Origin: Escherichia coli
GTDB taxonomy: Bacteria > Pseudomonadota > Gammaproteobacteria > Enterobacterales > Enterobacteriaceae
Assembly: GCF_003790525.1 (NCBI RefSeq)
Contig: NZ_CP033635.1
DNA: 64,000 nt
Strand: one strand, 5' to 3'
This document shows positions 1-49,916 of this stretch, piece after piece (the stretch's first letter is position 1; each line of letters opens with the position of its first letter). The position numbers and the translations under genes were made by a program. Under the pieces are notes generated by a model. That model worked only from the letters and a program-made list of their open reading frames with translations. It did no database searches and had not been told where the DNA came from.

Positions 1-2309
<2,309 letters not shown>

Positions 2310-2401
2310 ACAACGCCGAAGATGTTTTGGCGGAAGAGAGAAGATTTTCAGCCTGATACAGATTAAATCAGAACGCAGAAGCGGTCTGATGAAACAGAAT
2401 T

Positions 2402-2521
2402 TGCCTGGCGGCCGTAGCGCGGTGGTCCCACCTGACCCCATGCCGAACTCAGAAGTGAAACGCCGTAGCGCCGATGGTAGTGTGGGGTCTCCCCATGCGA
2501 GAGTAGGGAACTGCCAGGCAT
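2402..2521 (+). rRNA. rrfG: 5S ribosomal RNA
   Basis: 120-nt sequence TGCCTGGCGGCCGTAGCGCGGTGGTCCCACCTGACCCCATGCCGAACTCAGAAGTGAAACGCCGTAGCGCCGATGGTAGTGTGGGGTCTCCCCATGCGAGAGTAGGGAACTGCCAGGCAT matches E. coli 5S rRNA; follows the 23S 3' end after a ~92-nt spacer. Confidence 0.97.
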
Positions 2522-5976: not shown

Positions 5977-8637
5977 TCATGATTCCTCGCGCTGGGCAAG
6001 ATTTAGCGTAAGCCCAACGATCCCCTCTTCGAGCTGGATATCAACGTTAAACCCGAGCTTGCGGGCCAGCGCCACCATGCCACGATTGTTTGGCATCGTA
6101 ATACCATTCAGACGTTGCAGTCCGTGATCTCGCGTATAGGTAATCAACTTTTCCATTAAGCGTCGACCTAAGCCTAACCCTTTGAGATCCGAGCGAACCA
6201 GCACGGCAAATTCGGCATCGATGTTATCAGGGTCGGAGATCGCACGCGTGACGCCGAGGATCTCTTCCGTTTGATCAATACGTCGTACCGCTACAAATGC
6301 CATTTCCCGATCGTAGTCGATCTGCGTCATGTTGGCTAAATCTTCATGGGTAAATTCGTTGATCTCGCTAAAGTAGCGGTAATAAAGATCTTCTTTGGTG
6401 ACTCGCGAAATGAACTGCTGAAGTTGTGGCTCATCTTCTGGCAAAATCGGGCGGAACAAGCAGCGTTCACCGTTTTTCAATTCTACCCACTCTTCCAGCT
6501 GATGCGGATAAGGGCGCACTGCCAGCCGGCTCTCGTTATCGCCTTCAAACGGCGCGATATCCAGCGTGACATCCAGCGCGGTAAATTCACTGCCAGAAGC
6601 CAGCAAAGGATGAATATCCAGACGTTGAATTTCCGGACAATCGACAATCAAGTTGGAAACCTGTACCAGAAGCTGGCTCAAGCCTGCAACATCCAATGGG
6701 CGTAGCGCACTGCGCGCACGAATCTTTTTACTTTTGATCCCCTGAATAACCAGATAGCGGGCCAGGTTCATGTTCAGCGGTGGTAACGCGACGACGGCTT
6801 GATCTTCAGGACGCCACTCCACACCGCCTTCGCCCAGCATGATCAACGGCCCGAAAACCGGATCGTGCTCAACCACAACCCGCAACTCCTGAGCGCCAGC
6901 ACGGTTAGCCATACTTTGCACCAACAGGCCGTGGATCCGCGCCTGCGGCCAGGCCATTTTTACGCGATCGAAAATAGCGTTTGCCGCTTGCTGGACTTCA
7001 TTAGCTGTACGCAGGTAGAGCATGACGCCCTGAACTTCCGATTTATGTGGAATATCCGGCGAACGCAATTTCAGCGCCACCGGATAACCAATCTGTTCGG
7101 CAATATGCACCGCTTCGGTGCTATCGCTGGCAATCCAGGTGGGGAGCGTGTTCATGCCATATGCTTGCAGGATGGGCTGAACTTCATGGGTATCGAGTGA
7201 CGTTGCTCCTTCGGCAATCGCCTGTTGCAACAGAAGATGCGCTTCTGCGGTATTGGAGGTCAGATTGCTGGGCAACGCCGGCGTTTCGCGTAGTTGCTTC
7301 TGATTACGCCGGTACTCCACCATATGCATAAAAGCAGTGATGGTTCCTTCCGGCGTGCGATAGGTCGGCAGCCCGGCTTCACTGAATAATCGTCGTGCCT
7401 CTTGCGAGGAGTGCTCGCCACACCAGTTCGTCAGCAGAGAAACATACTTGCTGCGGGGATGATGCTTTACCGCTTCAATTAATGCTTGCGCGCTTTCTGT
7501 TGCGGGAGCAGCGGCGCTGGGCGAATGAATAACCATCAGCGCGTCAAAATCCTGGCTGTGGAGCAGGATATCCAGCGTTTTAATATAGTGCTCACTGCTG
7601 GCGTCATCGCGTAGATCGAGCGGGTTAGAGATTGCCACATGTTCTGGCAGTGCATCGCGCAGTTTCTGGCAGGTTTCTTCGCTTAGCGTTGCCAGCTTGC
7701 CATTGCGTGACCATAAGGCATCCAGCGCCAGCGCGGCAGGCGCAGCACCGTTGCTGATAATCATCAACCGGTCACCACGCAGCGGGCGCATATGGCTAAG
7801 GGTTTCCACCGCCGAAAACAGTTCGTGGGTATCCTGTACCCGCAACAAACCGGCACGCTGAATAGCCGCATCCCACGCTGGATCCATTCCTGCCGTGGTG
7901 TTCAACAGACGTTGAGCCGCCGGGCTACGTCCGCTTTTAATCACCAGAATCGGTTTATTGCGCGAGGCACTACGGGCCGCCGAAACAAAGCGTCGCGCGT
8001 CGCTTAACTGTTCGAGATAGAGCAGGATGGCGCTGGTTTTACTGTCGCGCGCCAGATAGTCGAGCAATTCATCAACGTCGATATCCAGGCTGTCGCCGAG
8101 CGCAATAAAGTAGGAAAAGCCCATCTCACGCTGTTGCGCCCAGTCGAGGATGGTGTTGGAGACAGCAGCCGATTGCGAAATAAACGCCAGCTTGCCGCGT
8201 TTAATCGGCACAGGCGAAAAGCTGGCATTCAGACCTTGCCAGGGAGCCAGTAAACCCAGACTGTTTGGTCCAAGCAGGCGCATGTTATGGCGCAGGGCGC
8301 AGGCGCGGAGATCTTCGTGTTGCGATGACGGGGCGGAAAGAATAATGCAGGTTTTACAGCCTTTCTCGCCGAGCTCTTCCAGAAGAGCAAGATTACGGCT
8401 GGCATTGGTACATAAAACCGCAAGGTCTGGTGTAAAGGGCAAGCTGGCAATATCCGGCCAGGCCAACACACCCAACACTGCTTTCCAGGCAGGCGTCACC
8501 GGGAGTACCGGTCCGTTAAAGCCTCCCGCCAGCAGGTTACGCATCATCAGGTAACCTGCGCGATTGGGTTTCATCGATGCGCCAATTACCGCAATCGATT
8601 TTGGTCGCAGTAGTGCTTCCAGTCCTCGCTGACTCAT
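5977..8637 (-). CDS. patZ: protein lysine acetyltransferase (NDP-forming acyl-CoA synthetase-like N-terminus plus C-terminal GNAT)
   Basis: 886-aa ORF MSQRGLEALLRPKSIAVIGASMKPNRAGY...; CoA-binding Rossmann start, C-terminal GNAT-like segment (...RGLGLGRRLMEKLITYTRDHG...). Confidence 0.93.
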   Translation of the reverse strand: MSQRGLEALLRPKSIAVIGASMKPNRAGYLMMRNLLAGGFNGPVLPVTPAWKAVLGVLAWPDIASLPFTPDLAVLCTNASRNLALLEELGEKGCKTCIILSAPSSQHEDLRACALRHNMRLLGPNSLGLLAPWQGLNASFSPVPIKRGKLAFISQSAAVSNTILDWAQQREMGFSYFIALGDSLDIDVDELLDYLARDSKTSAILLYLEQLSDARRFVSAARSASRNKPILVIKSGRSPAAQRLLNTTAGMDPAWDAAIQRAGLLRVQDTHELFSAVETLSHMRPLRGDRLMIISNGAAPAALALDALWSRNGKLATLSEETCQKLRDALPEHVAISNPLDLRDDASSEHYIKTLDILLHSQDFDALMVIHSPSAAAPATESAQALIEAVKHHPRSKYVSLLTNWCGEHSSQEARRLFSEAGLPTYRTPEGTITAFMHMVEYRRNQKQLRETPALPSNLTSNTAEAHLLLQQAIAEGATSLDTHEVQPILQAYGMNTLPTWIASDSTEAVHIAEQIGYPVALKLRSPDIPHKSEVQGVMLYLRTANEVQQAANAIFDRVKMAWPQARIHGLLVQSMANRAGAQELRVVVEHDPVFGPLIMLGEGGVEWRPEDQAVVALPPLNMNLARYLVIQGIKSKKIRARSALRPLDVAGLSQLLVQVSNLIVDCPEIQRLDIHPLLASGSEFTALDVTLDIAPFEGDNESRLAVRPYPHQLEEWVELKNGERCLFRPILPEDEPQLQQFISRVTKEDLYYRYFSEINEFTHEDLANMTQIDYDREMAFVAVRRIDQTEEILGVTRAISDPDNIDAEFAVLVRSDLKGLGLGRRLMEKLITYTRDHGLQRLNGITMPNNRGMVALARKLGFNVDIQLEEGIVGLTLNLAQREES

Positions 8638-11146: not shown

Positions 11147-11836
11147 TTACTCACTCTCTGCCGGTAATACTGGCATCCAGTCAATCGGCGTCTCGCCACG
11201 TTGTTCCAGCCACTGATTTGCCAGCACAAAATGGTTGCAGCCAAAGAATCCACGATGCGCCGAAAGCGGCGACGGATGCGGTGCTTTCAGTACATGATGG
11301 CGTTGCTTATCTATAATCGCCCCTTTCTTTTGCGCATGCGATCCCCACAACAAAAACACCACGCCTTCGCGATGCTGGTTAATCAGGCTGATCACTTTAT
11401 CGGTGAAGGTTTCCCAGCCGAGGCTGGCGTGGGAATGCGCCTGACCTGCGCGTACCGTCAACACAGTATTGAGTAGCAGAACGCCCTGACGCGCCCAGCT
11501 TTCAAGATAACCATGATTAGGGCGGGTGAAACCGGGAATAGTATTTTCCAGCTCTTTATACATATTCAGCAGTGACGGCGGTGTCGCAATGCCGGGGCGA
11601 ACGGAAAATGCCAGACCATGCGCCTGTCCCGGTCCGTGATAAGGATCCTGGCCGAGAATCACCACTTTAACGTCACCCAACTCTGTAAAGCGGAACGCGT
11701 TAAAGACATCCTTTTGTGGCGGATAGATAGTGACGCCGGACTGCCGCTCGCTGGCGACGGTCTGAAGGGTATTAAGAAAATAGGGTTGCTGCTTCTCTTC
11801 AGCCAGCACATCATGCCAGGTTAATTCGTTAGCCAT
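11147..11836 (-). CDS. ung: uracil-DNA glycosylase
   Basis: 229-aa ORF with the UDG catalytic motif [18 protein letters not shown] and [11 protein letters not shown]. Confidence 0.96.
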
Positions 11837-11966
11837 CTCGCTCTCCTGCGAATCTTCAATCCGCCTAGCTTAACTGCTTCTTTCTACAGAACAAAATCAT
11901 GCTCATTTTTTAGACTTAAACGAGTGCAAAAAAATGTAAATTGGTAAAATTTCACACCTGCATAAG

Positions 11967-11980
11967 TTGATGTAAAACAA
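11967..11980 (+). promoter_or_regulatory. upstream FNR-type site (TTGAT-N4-AACAA) of the grcA promoter
   Basis: TTGATgtaaAACAA, centred 53 bp upstream of the perfect site; matches the reported two-site FNR arrangement for yfiD/grcA. Confidence 0.6.
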
Positions 11981-12019
11981 TAAAATCCATTTGTGACCAC
12001 ATTCGATATGTGGTTTCTA

Positions 12020-12033
12020 TTGATTTAAATCAA
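12020..12033 (+). promoter_or_regulatory. consensus FNR site (TTGAT-N4-ATCAA) of the grcA promoter
   Basis: Perfect TTGATttaaATCAA palindrome ~108 bp upstream of the grcA start codon. Confidence 0.8.
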
Positions 12034-12140
12034 AGAATCAAGGGTGTTTGAGGAGTATATATACACTCAAGCAACAATGGTTTTACCAATTGGCCGCGAC
12101 AGGCTGAACAAATCAAATAATTTTGCCGGGGAGGCATCAC

Positions 12141-12524
12141 ATGATTACAGGTATCCAGATTACTAAAGCCGCTAACGACGATCTGCTGAACTCTTTCTGG
12201 CTGCTGGACAGCGAAAAAGGCGAAGCGCGTTGCATCGTTGCGAAAGCAGGTTTTGCAGAAGACGAAGTGGTTGCAGTAAGCAAACTGGGTGACATTGAGT
12301 ACCGTGAAGTTCCAGTAGAAGTGAAACCAGAAGTTCGCGTTGAAGGTGGTCAACACCTGAACGTAAACGTTCTGCGTCGTGAAACTCTGGAAGATGCAGT
12401 TAAGCATCCGGAAAAATATCCGCAGCTGACCATCCGTGTATCCGGTTATGCAGTTCGCTTTAACTCTCTGACTCCGGAACAGCAGCGCGACGTTATCGCT
12501 CGTACCTTTACTGAAAGCCTGTAA
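12141..12524 (+). CDS. grcA: autonomous glycyl radical cofactor (PFL C-terminal domain-like)
   Basis: 127 aa from [20 protein letters not shown]...; glycyl-radical motif RVSGYAVRF near the C-terminus; ORF-track ORF starts 6 codons upstream. Confidence 0.95.
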
Positions 12525-12547
12525 GGCTTAAGTAGCAAGTTACTAAG

Positions 12548-12577
12548 CGGAAGAGGGCGACCTCTTCCGCTTTTTTC
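12548..12577. terminator. rho-independent terminator between convergent grcA and eamB
   Basis: GCGGAAGAGG-GCGA-CCTCTTCCGC hairpin followed by TTTTTT. Confidence 0.85.
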
Positions 12578-12578
12578 A

Positions 12579-13166
12579 TTAATAGAAAATGCGTACCGCG
12601 CAATAGACCAGCAGCAGCGCGAGCACGATATTTAACTGGCGACCATACTGGCGAAACAATCGCTGAAACAGGTGCCCCGCCAGCGCCCAGCACACATTGC
12701 CAAACGTCCCAATCATCGCCAGCAAAACGCTGACGCCAATCACCCAGCTTAACGCCTGCGTTTGTGGCAGGACAAATGTCGACAGTGCTGTAATGCCATA
12801 CAAAATGATTTTGACGTTCACAAACTGCAAAGCAAAGCTGGCCCAAAAACTGATTGGTTTTGTCTGAAGCCCATCTTCCTTTGTTGGACTGGTAGCGATT
12901 TTCCACGCCAGCCAGACAATATATGCCGCCCCCGCCCAACTCAAAAGGTGTACCACTGCCGGGTCAATCACTGCCAGTGAAAATGAAATGCCCGCACACA
13001 GTAACATCACAATCAAAAATCCCAGACTCATCCCTGCCAGCACGCGAGTACTTTGACGAAATCCATGCGACGTAGCAGAGCTAAGGGCGAGAATATTGTT
13101 CGGTCCTGGCGTCATGGCGGTAATCAGGGTGTAAGTCCAAAAAGCACTTAAAAGGGTCGGTGTCAC
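12579..13166 (-). CDS. eamB: cysteine/O-acetylserine exporter (LysE/RhtB family)
   Basis: 195-aa hydrophobic ORF MTPTLLSAFWTYTLITAMTPGPNNILALSS...; typical RhtB/LysE N-terminus. Confidence 0.92.
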   Translation of the reverse strand: MTPTLLSAFWTYTLITAMTPGPNNILALSSATSHGFRQSTRVLAGMSLGFLIVMLLCAGISFSLAVIDPAVVHLLSWAGAAYIVWLAWKIATSPTKEDGLQTKPISFWASFALQFVNVKIILYGITALSTFVLPQTQALSWVIGVSVLLAMIGTFGNVCWALAGHLFQRLFRQYGRQLNIVLALLLVYCAVRIFY

Positions 13167-19659: not shown

Positions 19660-20615
19660 TGAAGCAACTTTGGTTTGCCATGTCATTAGTGACAGGTAGC
19701 CTGTTATTCTCTGCTAACGCCTCGGCCACTCCCGCGTCCGGGGCGTTATTACAGCAGATGAACCTGGCCAGTCAGTCACTGAATTACGAGCTGTCATTCA
19801 TCAGCATCAATAAACAGGGTGTTGAGTCTCTGCGTTATCGACATGCACGCCTCGATAACCGTCCTCTTGCACAATTGTTGCAAATGGATGGCCCGCGCCG
19901 GGAAGTGGTACAGCGCGGCAATGAGATCAGCTATTTTGAACCGGGACTTGAACCGTTCACGCTTAATGGCGATTACATTGTTGATTCTCTGCCATCGCTC
20001 ATCTATACCGATTTCAAACGCCTTTCTCCTTACTACGACTTTATCTCCGTCGGGCGCACGCGTATTGCTGATCGTCTTTGCGAAGTTATTCGCGTGGTTG
20101 CCCGAGATGGTACACGCTACAGCTACATCGTGTGGATGGACACCGAATCGAAATTACCGATGAGGGTTGATCTCCTTGATCGCGATGGTGAAACGCTGGA
20201 ACAATTTCGCGTGATTGCTTTTAATGTCAATCAGGATATCAGCAGCAGTATGCAGACGCTGGCGAAGGCAAATTTGCCGCCGTTGCTTTCTGTTCCTGTA
20301 GGTGAAAAAGCTAAATTCAGCTGGACGCCAACCTGGTTGCCACAGGGTTTTAGCGAAGTTTCCAGTAGTCGACGTCCGCTACCGACGATGGACAACATGC
20401 CTATTGAATCACGTCTCTATTCCGACGGATTATTCAGCTTCTCGGTAAACGTTAACCGCGCTACGCCATCGAGCACCGATCAGATGTTGCGCACCGGACG
20501 CAGAACCGTCAGTACAAGCGTACGTGATAACGCCGAAATCACCATTGTCGGTGAACTGCCGCCGCAAACGGCGAAACGCATTGCCGAGAATATTAAGTTC
20601 GGGGCAGCGCAATGA
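19659..20615 (+). CDS. rseB: sigmaE regulatory protein RseB
   Basis: 318-aa ORF with signal peptide (MKQLWFAMSLVTGSLLFSANASA); start overlaps the rseA stop by 1 nt (TAATG). Confidence 0.95.
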   Translation: MKQLWFAMSLVTGSLLFSANASATPASGALLQQMNLASQSLNYELSFISINKQGVESLRYRHARLDNRPLAQLLQMDGPRREVVQRGNEISYFEPGLEPFTLNGDYIVDSLPSLIYTDFKRLSPYYDFISVGRTRIADRLCEVIRVVARDGTRYSYIVWMDTESKLPMRVDLLDRDGETLEQFRVIAFNVNQDISSSMQTLAKANLPPLLSVPVGEKAKFSWTPTWLPQGFSEVSSSRRPLPTMDNMPIESRLYSDGLFSFSVNVNRATPSSTDQMLRTGRRTVSTSVRDNAEITIVGELPPQTAKRIAENIKFGAAQ

Positions 20616-42625: not shown

Positions 42626-42648
42626 TTGATGTATCTCAAATGCATCTT
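42626..42648. promoter_or_regulatory. NsrR-type operator at the hmp promoter
   Basis: Minus-strand AAGATGCATTTGAGATACATCAA is close to the NsrR consensus AAGATGCATTTAAAATACATCTT; starts 27 bp upstream of the hmp start codon. Confidence 0.7.
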
Positions 42649-48932: not shown

Positions 48933-49916
48933 ATGCCTAAAAAAATGAGAACAACCCGTAATCTATTATTAATGGCTACGCTATTAGGTAGCGCACTATT
49001 TGCCAGGGCTGCGGATAAAGAAATGACCATTGGCGCAATATACCTTGATACCCAGGGATATTACGCTGGCGTGCGTCAGGGTGTTCAGGATGCGGCAAAA
49101 GATTCTTCAGTACAGGTACAGTTAATTGAAACTAACGCCCAGGGTGATATTTCGAAAGAAAGTACCTTTGTTGATACCCTCGTGGCGCGTAATGTCGATG
49201 CCATTATTTTATCGGCAGTGTCTGAAAATGGCAGTAGCCGTACCGTTCGTCGCGCCAGTGAAGCGGGTATTCCGGTGATTTGCTACAACACCTGTATTAA
49301 TCAAAAAGGCGTCGATAAATATGTCTCGGCGTATCTGGTCGGCGATCCGCTGGAATTTGGTAAAAAACTGGGTAATGCTGCCGCCGATTATTTTATTGCC
49401 AACAAAATTGACCAGCCGAAAATTGCCGTCATCAATTGCGAAGCCTTTGAAGTTTGTGTGCAGCGACGTAAAGGGTTTGAAGAAGTATTAAAAGCCCGCG
49501 TTCCCGGCGCGCAAATTGTCGCTAATCAGGAAGGGACTGTTTTAGATAAAGCGATTTCCGTTGGTGAAAAACTAATTATCTCCAGGCCGGATCTCAACGC
49601 CATTATGGGTGAATCGGGCGGAGCGACACTCGGCGCGGTAAAAGCGGTACGTAATCAAAATCAGGCCGGAAAAATTGCTGTTTTCGGTTCGGATATGACC
49701 ACTGAAATTGCTCAGGAGCTGGAAAACAATCAGGTGCTGAAAGCGGTAGTGGATATTTCCGGCAAGAAAATGGGCAATGCTGTTTTCGCGCAAACATTGA
49801 AGGTTATCAATAAACAAGCCGACGGTGAAAAAGTGATTCAGGTGCCTATCGATCTCTATACCAAAACGGAAGACGGTAAACAGTGGCTGGCAACGCACGT
49901 TGATGGTCTGCCCTAA
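48933..49916 (+). CDS. yphF: ABC transporter periplasmic sugar-binding protein (uncharacterised)
   Basis: 327-aa ORF with signal peptide (MPKKMRTTRNLLLMATLLGSALFARA); periplasmic-binding-protein type I fold typical of monosaccharide ABC systems. Confidence 0.88.
   Translation: MPKKMRTTRNLLLMATLLGSALFARAADKEMTIGAIYLDTQGYYAGVRQGVQDAAKDSSVQVQLIETNAQGDISKESTFVDTLVARNVDAIILSAVSENGSSRTVRRASEAGIPVICYNTCINQKGVDKYVSAYLVGDPLEFGKKLGNAAADYFIANKIDQPKIAVINCEAFEVCVQRRKGFEEVLKARVPGAQIVANQEGTVLDKAISVGEKLIISRPDLNAIMGESGGATLGAVKAVRNQNQAGKIAVFGSDMTTEIAQELENNQVLKAVVDISGKKMGNAVFAQTLKVINKQADGEKVIQVPIDLYTKTEDGKQWLATHVDGLP

What the first reader, a model, noticed from the sequence alone, without database searches (positions are those of the whole stretch)
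11967..12033. Two FNR-type sites 53 bp apart upstream of grcA
A perfect TTGAT-N4-ATCAA palindrome (12020-12033) and a weaker TTGAT-N4-AACAA (11967-11980) are spaced about five helical turns apart, the classic dual-FNR arrangement of the yfiD/grcA promoter. It is a clean sequence-level confirmation of locus identity.
Basis: partly seen in the sequence, partly recalled or inferred. Interest (0 to 1): 0.2.

Follow-up and report, generated by a model that had tools for sequence, protein, structure and literature searches.

The report
Known dual-FNR promoter of E. coli grcA

Summary
The window is E. coli, with 5 mismatches in 64 kb to strain SMS-3-5. TTGATTTAAATCAA (12020-12033) is the only perfect FNR consensus in the window (0.06 expected by chance). 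TTGATGTAAAACAA (11967-11980) lies exactly 53 bp upstream, centre to centre. Both motifs are 100% identical to K-12, where they are the published yfiD/grcA FNR sites at -40.5 (activating) and -93.5 (down-regulating), described by Green 1998 and Marshall 2001. Myers 2013 lists both motifs under an FNR ChIP peak. Constructs that mutate or delete the upstream site on the K-12 version of this promoter give higher anaerobic output. New here, but only confirmatory: the pair sits at 52-53 bp in 62 of 81 sequences (the window plus 80 species loci). The upstream site is never a perfect consensus. The -10 element keeps a fixed offset in all 62 and a PdhR box does so in 50 of 62. Within E. coli both sites are invariant, while the spacer between them is a polymorphism hotspot holding a quasi-palindrome. 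Novelty: already known. Interest: low.

The parts
11967..11980 (.). FNR II, the upstream lower-affinity FNR site (TTGATGTAAAACAA), centred at -93.5 relative to the grcA transcription start. It down-regulates the promoter.
   Evidence: Sequence read; one mismatch to consensus; identical to K-12. Listed as TTGTTTTACATCAA at 2714632, 13.87 bits, ChIP-positive, in PMC3688515 supplement file 6, which maps to window 11980. It lies 52-53 bp upstream of FNR I in 62 of 81 sequences and is never a perfect consensus. It is invariant in 10 E. coli haplotypes.
12020..12033 (.). FNR I, the perfect-consensus FNR site (TTGATTTAAATCAA), centred at -40.5. It is a class II activator site overlapping the -35 region.
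   Evidence: Only perfect match in the window, 0.06 expected; identical to K-12. PMC3688515 gives -40.5 in its main table and 2714579, 17.25 bits, ChIP-positive in the supplement. Perfect in 36 of 62 sequences and one mismatch in 25.
11996..12014 (.). Quasi-palindrome ACCACAT-tcgat-ATGTGGT inside the 39-bp spacer between the two FNR sites. It is polymorphic in E. coli and its role is unknown.
   Evidence: Flagged as a stem. The DNA fold is -5.9 kcal/mol, z = -4.3. Eight of the 10 differences from K-12 fall at 11994-12017, and 13 of 32 spacer columns vary among 10 haplotypes. ACCAC...GTGGT recurs in Citrobacter, Enterobacter and Pseudocitrobacter.
12056..12061 (+). The -10 element TATATA of the grcA promoter. 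There is no -35 hexamer, as expected for a class II FNR promoter.
   Evidence: TATA is the most conserved block outside the FNR sites. A TATAxx hexamer sits at the same offset from FNR I in all 62 sequences. The sigma70 consensus scan finds no -35/-10 pair.
12067..12067 (+). Inferred grcA transcription start (+1).
   Evidence: FNR I centre 12026.5 plus the published 40.5 gives 12067. This is 6 nt after the -10 element. The sigma70 ChIP peak at 2714546 maps to 12066. The base-level start is inferred, not measured here.
12075..12091 (-). PdhR box (AATTGGTaaaACCAtTg on the minus strand), centred about +17. It is the pyruvate-responsive repressor site.
   Evidence: PMC7660256 Table 1 gives a grcA/ung PdhR box with 12 of 14 matches at 2714529, which maps to window 12083. 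A box with 4 or fewer of 14 mismatches sits at a fixed 56.5-57.5 bp from FNR I in 50 of 62 sequences.
12130..12134 (+). Shine-Dalgarno sequence GGAGG, 6 nt before the ATG.
   Evidence: Read directly from the sequence.
12141..12524 (+). grcA (yfiD) coding sequence, 127 aa, autonomous glycyl radical cofactor.
   Evidence: ORF; TIGR04365 at 233.9 bits; RefSeq annotation WP_000627804.1.
12545..12581 (+). Intrinsic terminator-like hairpin with a T-run after grcA.
   Evidence: Twelve-pair stem, 7 of them G-C, followed by TTTTTCATTA.
11147..11836 (-). ung, the divergent neighbour that shares the 304-bp intergenic region.

Best explanation
This is the oxygen-responsive promoter of E. coli grcA (yfiD). 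Under low oxygen, the [4Fe-4S] FNR dimer binds the perfect site FNR I (12020-12033), centred at -40.5. There it acts as a class II activator, standing in for the missing -35 element and recruiting sigma70 RNA polymerase to start at about 12067. The weaker site FNR II (11967-11980, centred at -93.5) lies five helical turns upstream on the same face of the DNA. It fills only when active FNR is abundant, that is, under strict anaerobiosis. FNR bound there then dampens the activation from FNR I, so output peaks under microaerobic conditions. Microaerobiosis is when GrcA is needed to repair oxygen-cleaved pyruvate formate-lyase. PdhR bound at about +17 (12075-12091) adds repression that pyruvate relieves, and ArcA counteracts the FNR II effect. 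What is shown here: the sequence, its identity to K-12, the positions of the elements, and their conservation. What is taken from the literature on the identical K-12 sequence: FNR occupancy, activation and down-regulation, and the PdhR and ArcA effects. What is inferred: that this strain behaves the same way, and the exact start base.
For: Both motifs are at the stated coordinates, and the perfect site is unique in the window against 0.06 expected. The locus is ung-grcA-eamB of E. coli, and GrcA is confirmed by TIGR04365. Both FNR sites, the -10 element and the PdhR box are identical to K-12. PMC3688515 lists yfiD with an FNR site at -40.5, FNR-activated and ChIP-bound. Its supplement lists both 14-mers 53 bp apart, at 17.25 and 13.87 bits, both bound. 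Mapped to the window, the FNR ChIP peak falls at 12005-12007, between the two sites, and the sigma70 peak falls at 12066. [quoted passage not shown] In PMC10208419, yfiD-m (point mutations in FNR II) and yfiD-P1 (FNR II deleted) were much stronger anaerobically than the wild type, which that paper ranked among the candidates too weak to pursue; it also cites Marshall 2001 for higher wild-type activity under microaerobic than under fully anaerobic conditions. The primers show these constructs are built on the K-12 version of this promoter. PMC3181329 tabulates yfiD as ArcA (+), FNR (+/-), PdhR (-), and as induced on an anaerobic-to-microaerobic shift. PMC3798270 says ArcA activates yfiD by disrupting FNR binding. 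The PdhR box is in PMC7660256. Conservation: the pair sits at exactly 53 bp in 55 sequences and at 52 bp in 6-7 more, of 81 sequences counting the window. FNR II has at least one mismatch in all 62, whereas FNR I is perfect in 36. Information content is near 2 bits at both sites and at the -10 element, against 0 to about 1.3 bits in the spacer. Neither site has a variable column among 10 E. coli haplotypes.
Against: None of substance. The primary papers (Green 1998, Marshall 2001, Wyborn 2002) are not held, so their details come second-hand. No base-resolution transcription-start dataset could be read for this locus. The sigma70 ChIP peak has only tens-of-bp resolution and was recorded for an aerobic sample. 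The window's spacer allele differs from K-12 at 8 positions between the sites, so quantitative behaviour in this strain is untested. The strongly conserved TAAAACAA half of FNR II could reflect an overlapping site for another factor rather than selection on FNR affinity.
Confidence: 0.94

Rival explanations
1. The upstream motif (11967-11980) is a chance near-match with no function, and only the perfect site matters.
For: One-mismatch matches are common: 6 in the window against 2.6 expected, and three of them lie inside genes.
Against: The motif is kept 52-53 bp upstream of FNR I in 62 of 81 sequences while the spacer diverges. It is invariant in E. coli and listed as ChIP-bound. Mutating or deleting it raises anaerobic output.
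Confidence: 0.02
2. The upstream site mainly serves the divergent ung gene, for example as a class I FNR site for an ung promoter, rather than grcA.
For: The site lies 137.5 bp upstream of the ung ATG, in a shared 304-bp intergenic region. ChIP peaks are labelled yfiD/ung.
Against: Neither ung nor b2580 appears in the FNR-dependent expression tables of PMC3688515, whereas yfiD is listed as activated. Mutation or deletion of FNR II changes yfiD promoter output directly. The spacing to FNR I, not to ung, is what is conserved.
Confidence: 0.04
3. The conserved imperfect half-site (TAAAACAA) of FNR II is conserved because it overlaps an ArcA site or the site of another factor, and not because low FNR affinity is selected.
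For: Conservation extends beyond the FNR core, since TAAAACAA is nearly invariant. ArcA is reported to act at yfiD by disrupting FNR binding. IHF ChIP-chip signal overlaps both motifs.
Against: I could not locate a convincing ArcA direct repeat by eye, and the paper that maps the ArcA sites is not held. This reading is compatible with the main explanation rather than an alternative to it.
Confidence: 0.15
4. The motifs are sites for CRP, not FNR.
For: CRP and FNR recognise related inverted repeats.
Against: Both motifs carry the FNR-type TTGA core, where the CRP consensus has GTGA (direct reading). FNR ChIP and fnr-dependent expression are reported.
Confidence: 0.01

Closest known systems
E. 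coli K-12 yfiD (grcA) promoter: FNR I at -40.5, FNR II at -93.5 (Green et al. 1998; Marshall et al. 2001)
   Same: Same locus and same gene. Both 14-mers, the -10 element, the PdhR box and the 53-bp spacing are identical. It is the same object.
   Different: There are ten substitutions in the 304-bp intergenic region, 8 of them in the spacer between the FNR sites. The window's allele is rare: 33 of 5425 genomes are at least 99% identical.
Simple class II FNR-activated promoters with a single site at -41.5 or -40.5 (e.g. narG, dmsA, nirB, pykA)
   Same: A consensus FNR site overlaps the -35 region, there is no -35 hexamer, and induction is anaerobic (table).
   Different: grcA has a second, weaker FNR site five turns upstream that represses, which gives a microaerobic optimum.
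Tandem-CRP promoters in which upstream-bound CRP represses at a distance (PMC3445967)
   Same: An upstream-bound activator-family dimer decreases the activity of a promoter that is activated by the same factor bound closer in.
   Different: In the CRP case, repression works through the alpha C-terminal domain. At yfiD, the same paper states that the alpha C-terminal domain is not involved.
Pasteurellaceae grcA upstream regions (loci L046, L049, L053, L054, L056, L061, L067)
   Same: They are orthologous genes with two FNR-type sites upstream.
   Different: The spacing is 42-44 bp rather than 53 bp. In most of them the better site is the distal one. The promoter has its own TTGAAA-type -35 and an extended -10 (TGATAAAAT), which puts the proximal site near -48.5 by my count. 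This variant is uncharacterised as far as I could check.

Membership tests
yfiD/grcA dual-FNR promoter (class II FNR promoter with an upstream down-regulating FNR site) | An FNR consensus site (TTGAT-N4-ATCAA) centred about 40.5-41.5 bp upstream of the transcription start | tested here: met
   Perfect site at 12020-12033. The conserved -10 element at 12056-12061 and the sigma70 ChIP peak mapped to 12066 place +1 at about 12067. The published position is -40.5.
yfiD/grcA dual-FNR promoter (class II FNR promoter with an upstream down-regulating FNR site) | A second, weaker FNR site 53 bp further upstream (-93.5), on the same helical face | tested here: met
   TTGATGTAAAACAA at 11967-11980, centres 53 bp apart. 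It scores 13.87 bits against 17.25 bits for FNR I. It is conserved at 52-53 bp in 62 of 81 sequences and is never a perfect consensus.
yfiD/grcA dual-FNR promoter (class II FNR promoter with an upstream down-regulating FNR site) | The downstream gene is grcA/yfiD | tested here: met
   TIGR04365 equivalog at 233.9 bits against a cutoff of 170; RefSeq annotation.
yfiD/grcA dual-FNR promoter (class II FNR promoter with an upstream down-regulating FNR site) | Sequence identity of the functional elements to the experimentally dissected K-12 promoter | tested here: met
   The alignment shows both FNR sites, the -10 element, the 5' UTR and the PdhR box to be identical. Differences are confined to the spacer and a few flanking bases.
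yfiD/grcA dual-FNR promoter (class II FNR promoter with an upstream down-regulating FNR site) | In vivo FNR occupancy and fnr-dependent anaerobic activation | not testable with these tools
   Reported for K-12: a ChIP-seq peak, both motifs marked as bound, and yfiD listed as activated. Not measured in this strain.
yfiD/grcA dual-FNR promoter (class II FNR promoter with an upstream down-regulating FNR site) | Occupation of the upstream site lowers expression, giving a microaerobic optimum | not testable with these tools
   Reported in the literature: with the constructs yfiD-m and yfiD-P1. The exact 53-bp spacing and the invariably imperfect FNR II seen here are consistent with it but do not prove it.
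PdhR-repressed promoters | A PdhR box AATTGGTnnnACCAATT overlapping or downstream of the promoter | tested here: met
   Window 12075-12091, minus strand, AATTGGTaaaACCAtTg, 12 of 14 matches. The same box is listed in PMC7660256. It sits at a fixed offset in 50 of 62 sequences. Repression itself comes from the literature.
CRP-dependent promoter | The CRP core TGTGA-N6-TCACA | tested here: not met
   Both motifs have TTGA/TCAA cores, which is FNR-type (direct reading).
Known structured RNA (Rfam) in the intergenic region or 5' UTR | A match reaching a family's gathering score | tested here: not met
   The best hits were 18-20 bits against gathering scores of 86-111, with E-values of 0.5-1.

The most novel reading that the evidence does not exclude
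The polymorphic quasi-palindrome ACCAC(A/T)(T/C)-N5-(A/G)TGTGGT in the 39-bp spacer between the two FNR sites (11996-12014) may not be neutral filler. It recurs as ACCAC...GTGGT in Citrobacter, Enterobacter and Pseudocitrobacter. It could be the site of an unidentified factor, or a structural or bending element, that tunes the interplay between the two FNR dimers. If so, the distinct E. coli spacer alleles, including the rare perfect-palindrome allele in this window, would set different microaerobic and anaerobic grcA expression levels.
Probability: 0.1. Interest if true: 0.35.

Novelty: already known. Interest (0 to 1): 0.08.

Why it matters
It matters little for discovery. It confirms that the window is the E. 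coli ung-grcA locus and that the textbook yfiD promoter is intact in this strain. The comparative results add modest support to the published model that a deliberately weak upstream FNR site gives a microaerobic expression optimum. Those results are the exact 53-bp spacing, an upstream site that is never a perfect consensus, and the fixed -10 and PdhR-box offsets across Enterobacterales. They also show that this architecture is ancestral to the order and not a K-12 peculiarity. The yfiD promoter is used as an oxygen-responsive part in metabolic engineering, so natural spacer alleles might be a small source of tuning variants.

Tried and rejected
- The primary papers (Green 1998, PubMed 9767578; Marshall 2001, by DOI; Ogasawara 2007, PMC1951801; Thomason 2015, PMC4288677) are not held, so their content is cited only through papers that are held.
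- Genome-wide transcription-start tables were of no use. Table S1 of PMC3415461 and the GTF of PMC4782308 were truncated when stored and do not reach this locus. PMC4161252 has no supplements held. No base-resolution start was therefore obtained, and I used the sigma70 ChIP peak and the conserved -10 element instead.
- The generic sigma70 promoter scan found nothing in 11700-12700. That is expected for a class II activator-dependent promoter without a -35 hexamer, and I do not count it as evidence against a promoter.
- The stem at 11995-12015, which one search flagged as terminator-like, is rejected as a terminator. It lies upstream of the grcA start with no upstream gene on that strand, and its T-run is interrupted.
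- I looked by eye for ArcA direct repeats overlapping FNR II and found no convincing match, so I make no claim about the ArcA site position.
- The upstream AATTGGT half-site at 11939-11945 was considered as a second PdhR box. Its other half matches 1 of 7 positions and the region is poorly conserved, so it is not claimed.
- The Rfam scan of the region returned nothing meaningful.

Full report
**Observation.** Direct reading of the window shows TTGATGTAAAACAA at 11967-11980 and TTGATTTAAATCAA at 12020-12033. The centres are 11973.5 and 12026.5, which is 53 bp or about 5.05 helical turns. The perfect FNR palindrome TTGAT-N4-ATCAA occurs once in the 64 kb window, against 0.06 expected from dinucleotide-preserving shuffles. 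Allowing one mismatch gives 6 matches against 2.6 expected, so the upstream motif would not be remarkable on its own. Its position is what makes it remarkable. From the rate, a one-mismatch site within 60 bp of the perfect one is expected about 0.5% of the time (my arithmetic).

The other four one-mismatch matches account for the background. Three lie inside genes: patZ at 7754, rseB at 19797 and yphF at 49797. The fourth, at 42626-42639, lies 27 bp upstream of hmpA and is the hmp FNR box TTGAGATACATCAA listed by Myers et al.. So about three real sites plus three chance ones match the expectation of 2.6 chance hits.

**Locus identity.** The window is E. coli. A 1.5 kb segment around the finding is 100% identical to strain SMS-3-5 and others. 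The whole window is colinear with SMS-3-5, with 5 mismatches in 64 kb. The annotated neighbours are yfiF, ung (minus strand, 11147-11836), grcA (plus strand, 12141-12524), eamB and yfiE. The grcA product matches the NCBIfam equivalog TIGR04365 (autonomous glycyl radical cofactor GrcA) at 233.9 bits against a cutoff of 170. My first attempt to translate it was off by one base; the ATG is at 12141.

**Comparison with the characterised promoter.** I aligned the window's ung-grcA intergenic region with that of K-12 MG1655. Both FNR motifs, the TATATA element, the 5' UTR and the ribosome-binding site are identical. Ten positions differ, and 8 of them cluster at 11994-12017, inside the spacer between the two motifs.

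The primary papers are not held, but several held papers report their content.
- PMC3688515 (Myers 2013) lists yfiD with an FNR site at -40.5, FNR-activated, with a ChIP-seq peak at 2,714,605.
- Its supplement file 6 lists both motifs: TTGATTTAAATCAA at 2714579 (17.25 bits) and TTGTTTTACATCAA at 2714632 (13.87 bits). The second is the reverse complement of the window's upstream motif. They are 53 bp apart, and both are marked as bound.
- PMC10208419 rebuilt the promoter. Its primers cover the K-12 equivalent of about window 11958-12084. One construct changes the key G/C pairs of FNR II (yfiD-m) and another deletes FNR II (yfiD-P1). Both were far stronger anaerobically than the wild type, which the authors ranked among the candidates too weak to pursue. 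They cite Marshall 2001 for higher wild-type activity under microaerobic than under fully anaerobic conditions.
- PMC3181329 tabulates yfiD as ArcA (+), FNR (+/-), PdhR (-), and shows that it is induced on a shift from anaerobic to microaerobic conditions.
- PMC3798270 attributes ArcA activation of yfiD to disruption of FNR binding.

I used the two motif coordinates in Myers file 6 to calibrate U00096.2 coordinates to the window. The calibration is self-consistent, since 2714632 maps to 11980 as required.
- The FNR ChIP peak maps to 12005-12007, between the two sites.
- The sigma70 ChIP peak at 2714546 maps to 12066.
- The PdhR box position from PMC7660256 (2714529) maps to 12083.

The published -40.5 position puts +1 at 12067. 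The conserved TATATA lies at 12056-12061, 6 nt upstream of that. The generic sigma70 scan finds no -35/-10 pair, as expected for a class II promoter in which FNR takes the place of the -35 element. I could not obtain a base-resolution start, because the stored start tables were truncated or absent. All available evidence places the start about 40 bp downstream of 12020-12033, so the refutation condition is not met.

**Related sequences.** A scan of one genome per species with the GrcA protein returned 80 loci from Enterobacterales and Pasteurellales. I scanned the 400 bp upstream of each grcA.
- Two FNR-type sites lie exactly 53 bp apart in 55 sequences, and 52 bp apart in 6 or 7 more, out of 81 sequences counting the window.
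- These span Escherichia, Citrobacter, Enterobacter, Klebsiella, Kosakonia, Cedecea, Hafnia, Edwardsiella, Yersinia, Serratia, Rahnella, Dickeya, Pectobacterium, Brenneria, Erwinia and Mixta.
- In an ungapped stack anchored on the proximal site, information content is near the 2-bit maximum at both TTGAT/TCAA cores and at TATA. It is mostly 0 to about 1.3 bits in the spacer.
- The proximal site is a perfect consensus in 36 of 62 sequences. The upstream site is never perfect: it has one mismatch in 49 and two in 13. Its right half is AACAA in 43 and AACAT in 10.
- A TATAxx hexamer sits at the same offset in all 62 sequences.
- A PdhR box with 4 or fewer of 14 mismatches sits 56.5-57.5 bp downstream of the FNR I centre in 50 of 62 sequences.

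The whole architecture (FNR II, 53 bp, FNR I, -10 element, PdhR box at about +17) is therefore conserved across the order. A persistently sub-optimal upstream site fits the published model that it fills only at high levels of active FNR. An earlier comparative study had already predicted FNR regulation of yfiD in nine of ten gamma-proteobacterial genomes (PMC1805755). This is therefore an extension of known work and not a discovery.

**Within E. coli.** The 304-bp intergenic region is present once in 5425 of 5426 complete genomes. All 40 sampled matches span exactly 304 bp, so the spacing carries no indels in the sample. Only 33 genomes are at least 99% identical to the window's allele; nearly all the rest are 96-98% identical. 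In ten haplotypes (the window, K-12 and eight sampled across the identity range), neither FNR site nor the -10 element has a variable column. In the 32 columns from 11988 to 12019, 13 vary.

**The spacer quasi-palindrome.** The window has a perfect ACCACAT-tcgat-ATGTGGT. O157:H7 has a perfect ACCACAC-ttgat-GTGTGGT. K-12, Nissle and others have one or two mispairs. Folded as single-stranded DNA, the window allele gives -5.9 kcal/mol (z = -4.3) and the K-12 allele gives -3.6 kcal/mol (z = -4.5). Across species, an ACCAC...GTGGT inverted repeat recurs in Citrobacter, Enterobacter, Lelliottia and Pseudocitrobacter. Inverted repeats of at least 6 bp occur in 11 of 64 spacers, against 4.5% of shuffled spacers. 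The pattern is not strictly compensatory. It could equally reflect template-switch mutation at a quasi-palindrome (my inference), a site for another factor, or chance. IHF ChIP-chip signal is recorded over both motifs. I leave this as an unexplained side observation. Rfam finds nothing in the region.

**Mechanism.** The following steps are established by the literature on the identical K-12 sequence.
1. FNR at -40.5 activates as a class II activator.
2. FNR at the weaker -93.5 site down-regulates, through the face of FNR that carries activating region 1 (title of Green 1998).
3. The result is a microaerobic optimum (title of Marshall 2001).
4. PdhR represses and ArcA relieves the FNR II effect.

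The following are shown here: the elements are present, correctly placed, identical to K-12, and conserved with exact spacing. The following are inferred: the exact start base, and that this strain, with its rare spacer allele, behaves quantitatively like K-12.

**Rivals.**
- The upstream motif as a chance match is excluded by conservation, ChIP and mutational data.
- A role mainly for the divergent ung gene is unlikely. ung does not appear in the FNR expression tables, and it is the spacing to FNR I that is conserved.
- CRP is excluded by the TTGA cores.
- The conserved TAAAACAA half-site may partly reflect an overlapping ArcA or other site. This is compatible with the main model, and I could not test it.

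**Verdict.** This is the well-known yfiD/grcA dual-FNR promoter. Novelty: already known. Interest: low.

Noticed in passing
window 11988-12019 (quasi-palindrome 11996-12014): The spacer between the two FNR sites is a polymorphism hotspot in E. coli. Eight of the 10 differences from K-12 fall here, and 13 of 32 columns vary among 10 haplotypes, while both FNR sites are invariant. It holds a quasi-palindrome ACCACAT-N5-ATGTGGT. The palindrome is perfect in the window and, with a C:G pair in place of T:A, in O157:H7; it is imperfect in K-12 and Nissle. ACCAC...GTGGT recurs in Citrobacter, Enterobacter and Pseudocitrobacter. Its function is unknown; it may be a template-switch mutational hotspot.
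   Followed up: partly
window 11837-12140: The window's ung-grcA intergenic allele is rare. Only 33 of 5425 complete E. coli genomes are at least 99% identical to it, and nearly all others are 96-98% identical. All sampled matches are exactly 304 bp long, with no indels.
   Followed up: partly
window 42626-42639: A one-mismatch FNR site TTGATGTATCTCAA (TTGAGATACATCAA on the gene strand) lies 27 bp upstream of the hmpA start, in the glyA-hmpA intergenic region. It is the known hmp FNR box. Myers 2013 lists it as a high-scoring motif without a ChIP peak, and lists hmp as FNR-repressed.
   Followed up: partly
window 7754-7767, 19797-19810, 49797-49810: Three further one-mismatch FNR-like motifs lie inside the genes patZ, rseB and yphF. 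This number is consistent with the chance expectation of 2.6 per window. The rseB motif is listed by Myers 2013 as an unbound motif.
   Followed up: yes
window 12075-12091: A PdhR box (AATTGGTaaaACCAtTg on the minus strand, centred about +17 of grcA) is kept at a fixed 56.5-57.5 bp from the FNR I centre in 50 of 62 sequences. The pyruvate input is therefore as conserved as the FNR inputs.
   Followed up: yes
loci L046, L049, L053, L054, L056, L061, L067 (about 85-140 bp upstream of grcA): Pasteurellaceae grcA genes also have two FNR-type sites, but they are 42-44 bp apart and in most of them the better site is the distal one. The promoter there has its own TTGAAA-type -35 and an extended -10 (TGATAAAAT). 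By my count this puts the proximal site near -48.5 and the distal one near -92. A TTGA-N5-TCAA palindrome overlaps the -35 region.
   Followed up: partly
window 11897-11927: A second cluster of variable positions (13 of 31 columns among 10 E. coli haplotypes) lies in the ung-proximal part of the intergenic region, where the ung promoter should be. I did not check which strains contribute to it.
   Followed up: no
window 11939-11945: A perfect PdhR half-site AATTGGT lies upstream of FNR II. The other half matches only 1 of 7 positions, and the region is poorly conserved across species. It is probably not a functional second box, but I could not check this against Wyborn 2002.
   Followed up: partly
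window 11960-12040: Myers 2013 supplement file 6 flags both grcA FNR motifs as overlapping IHF ChIP-chip signal. I did not identify an IHF site in the sequence.
   Followed up: no
window 1-2519: By colinearity with SMS-3-5, the window starts inside an rRNA operon: 23S rRNA to about position 2309 and 5S rRNA at about 2404-2519, both on the window's plus strand.
   Followed up: no
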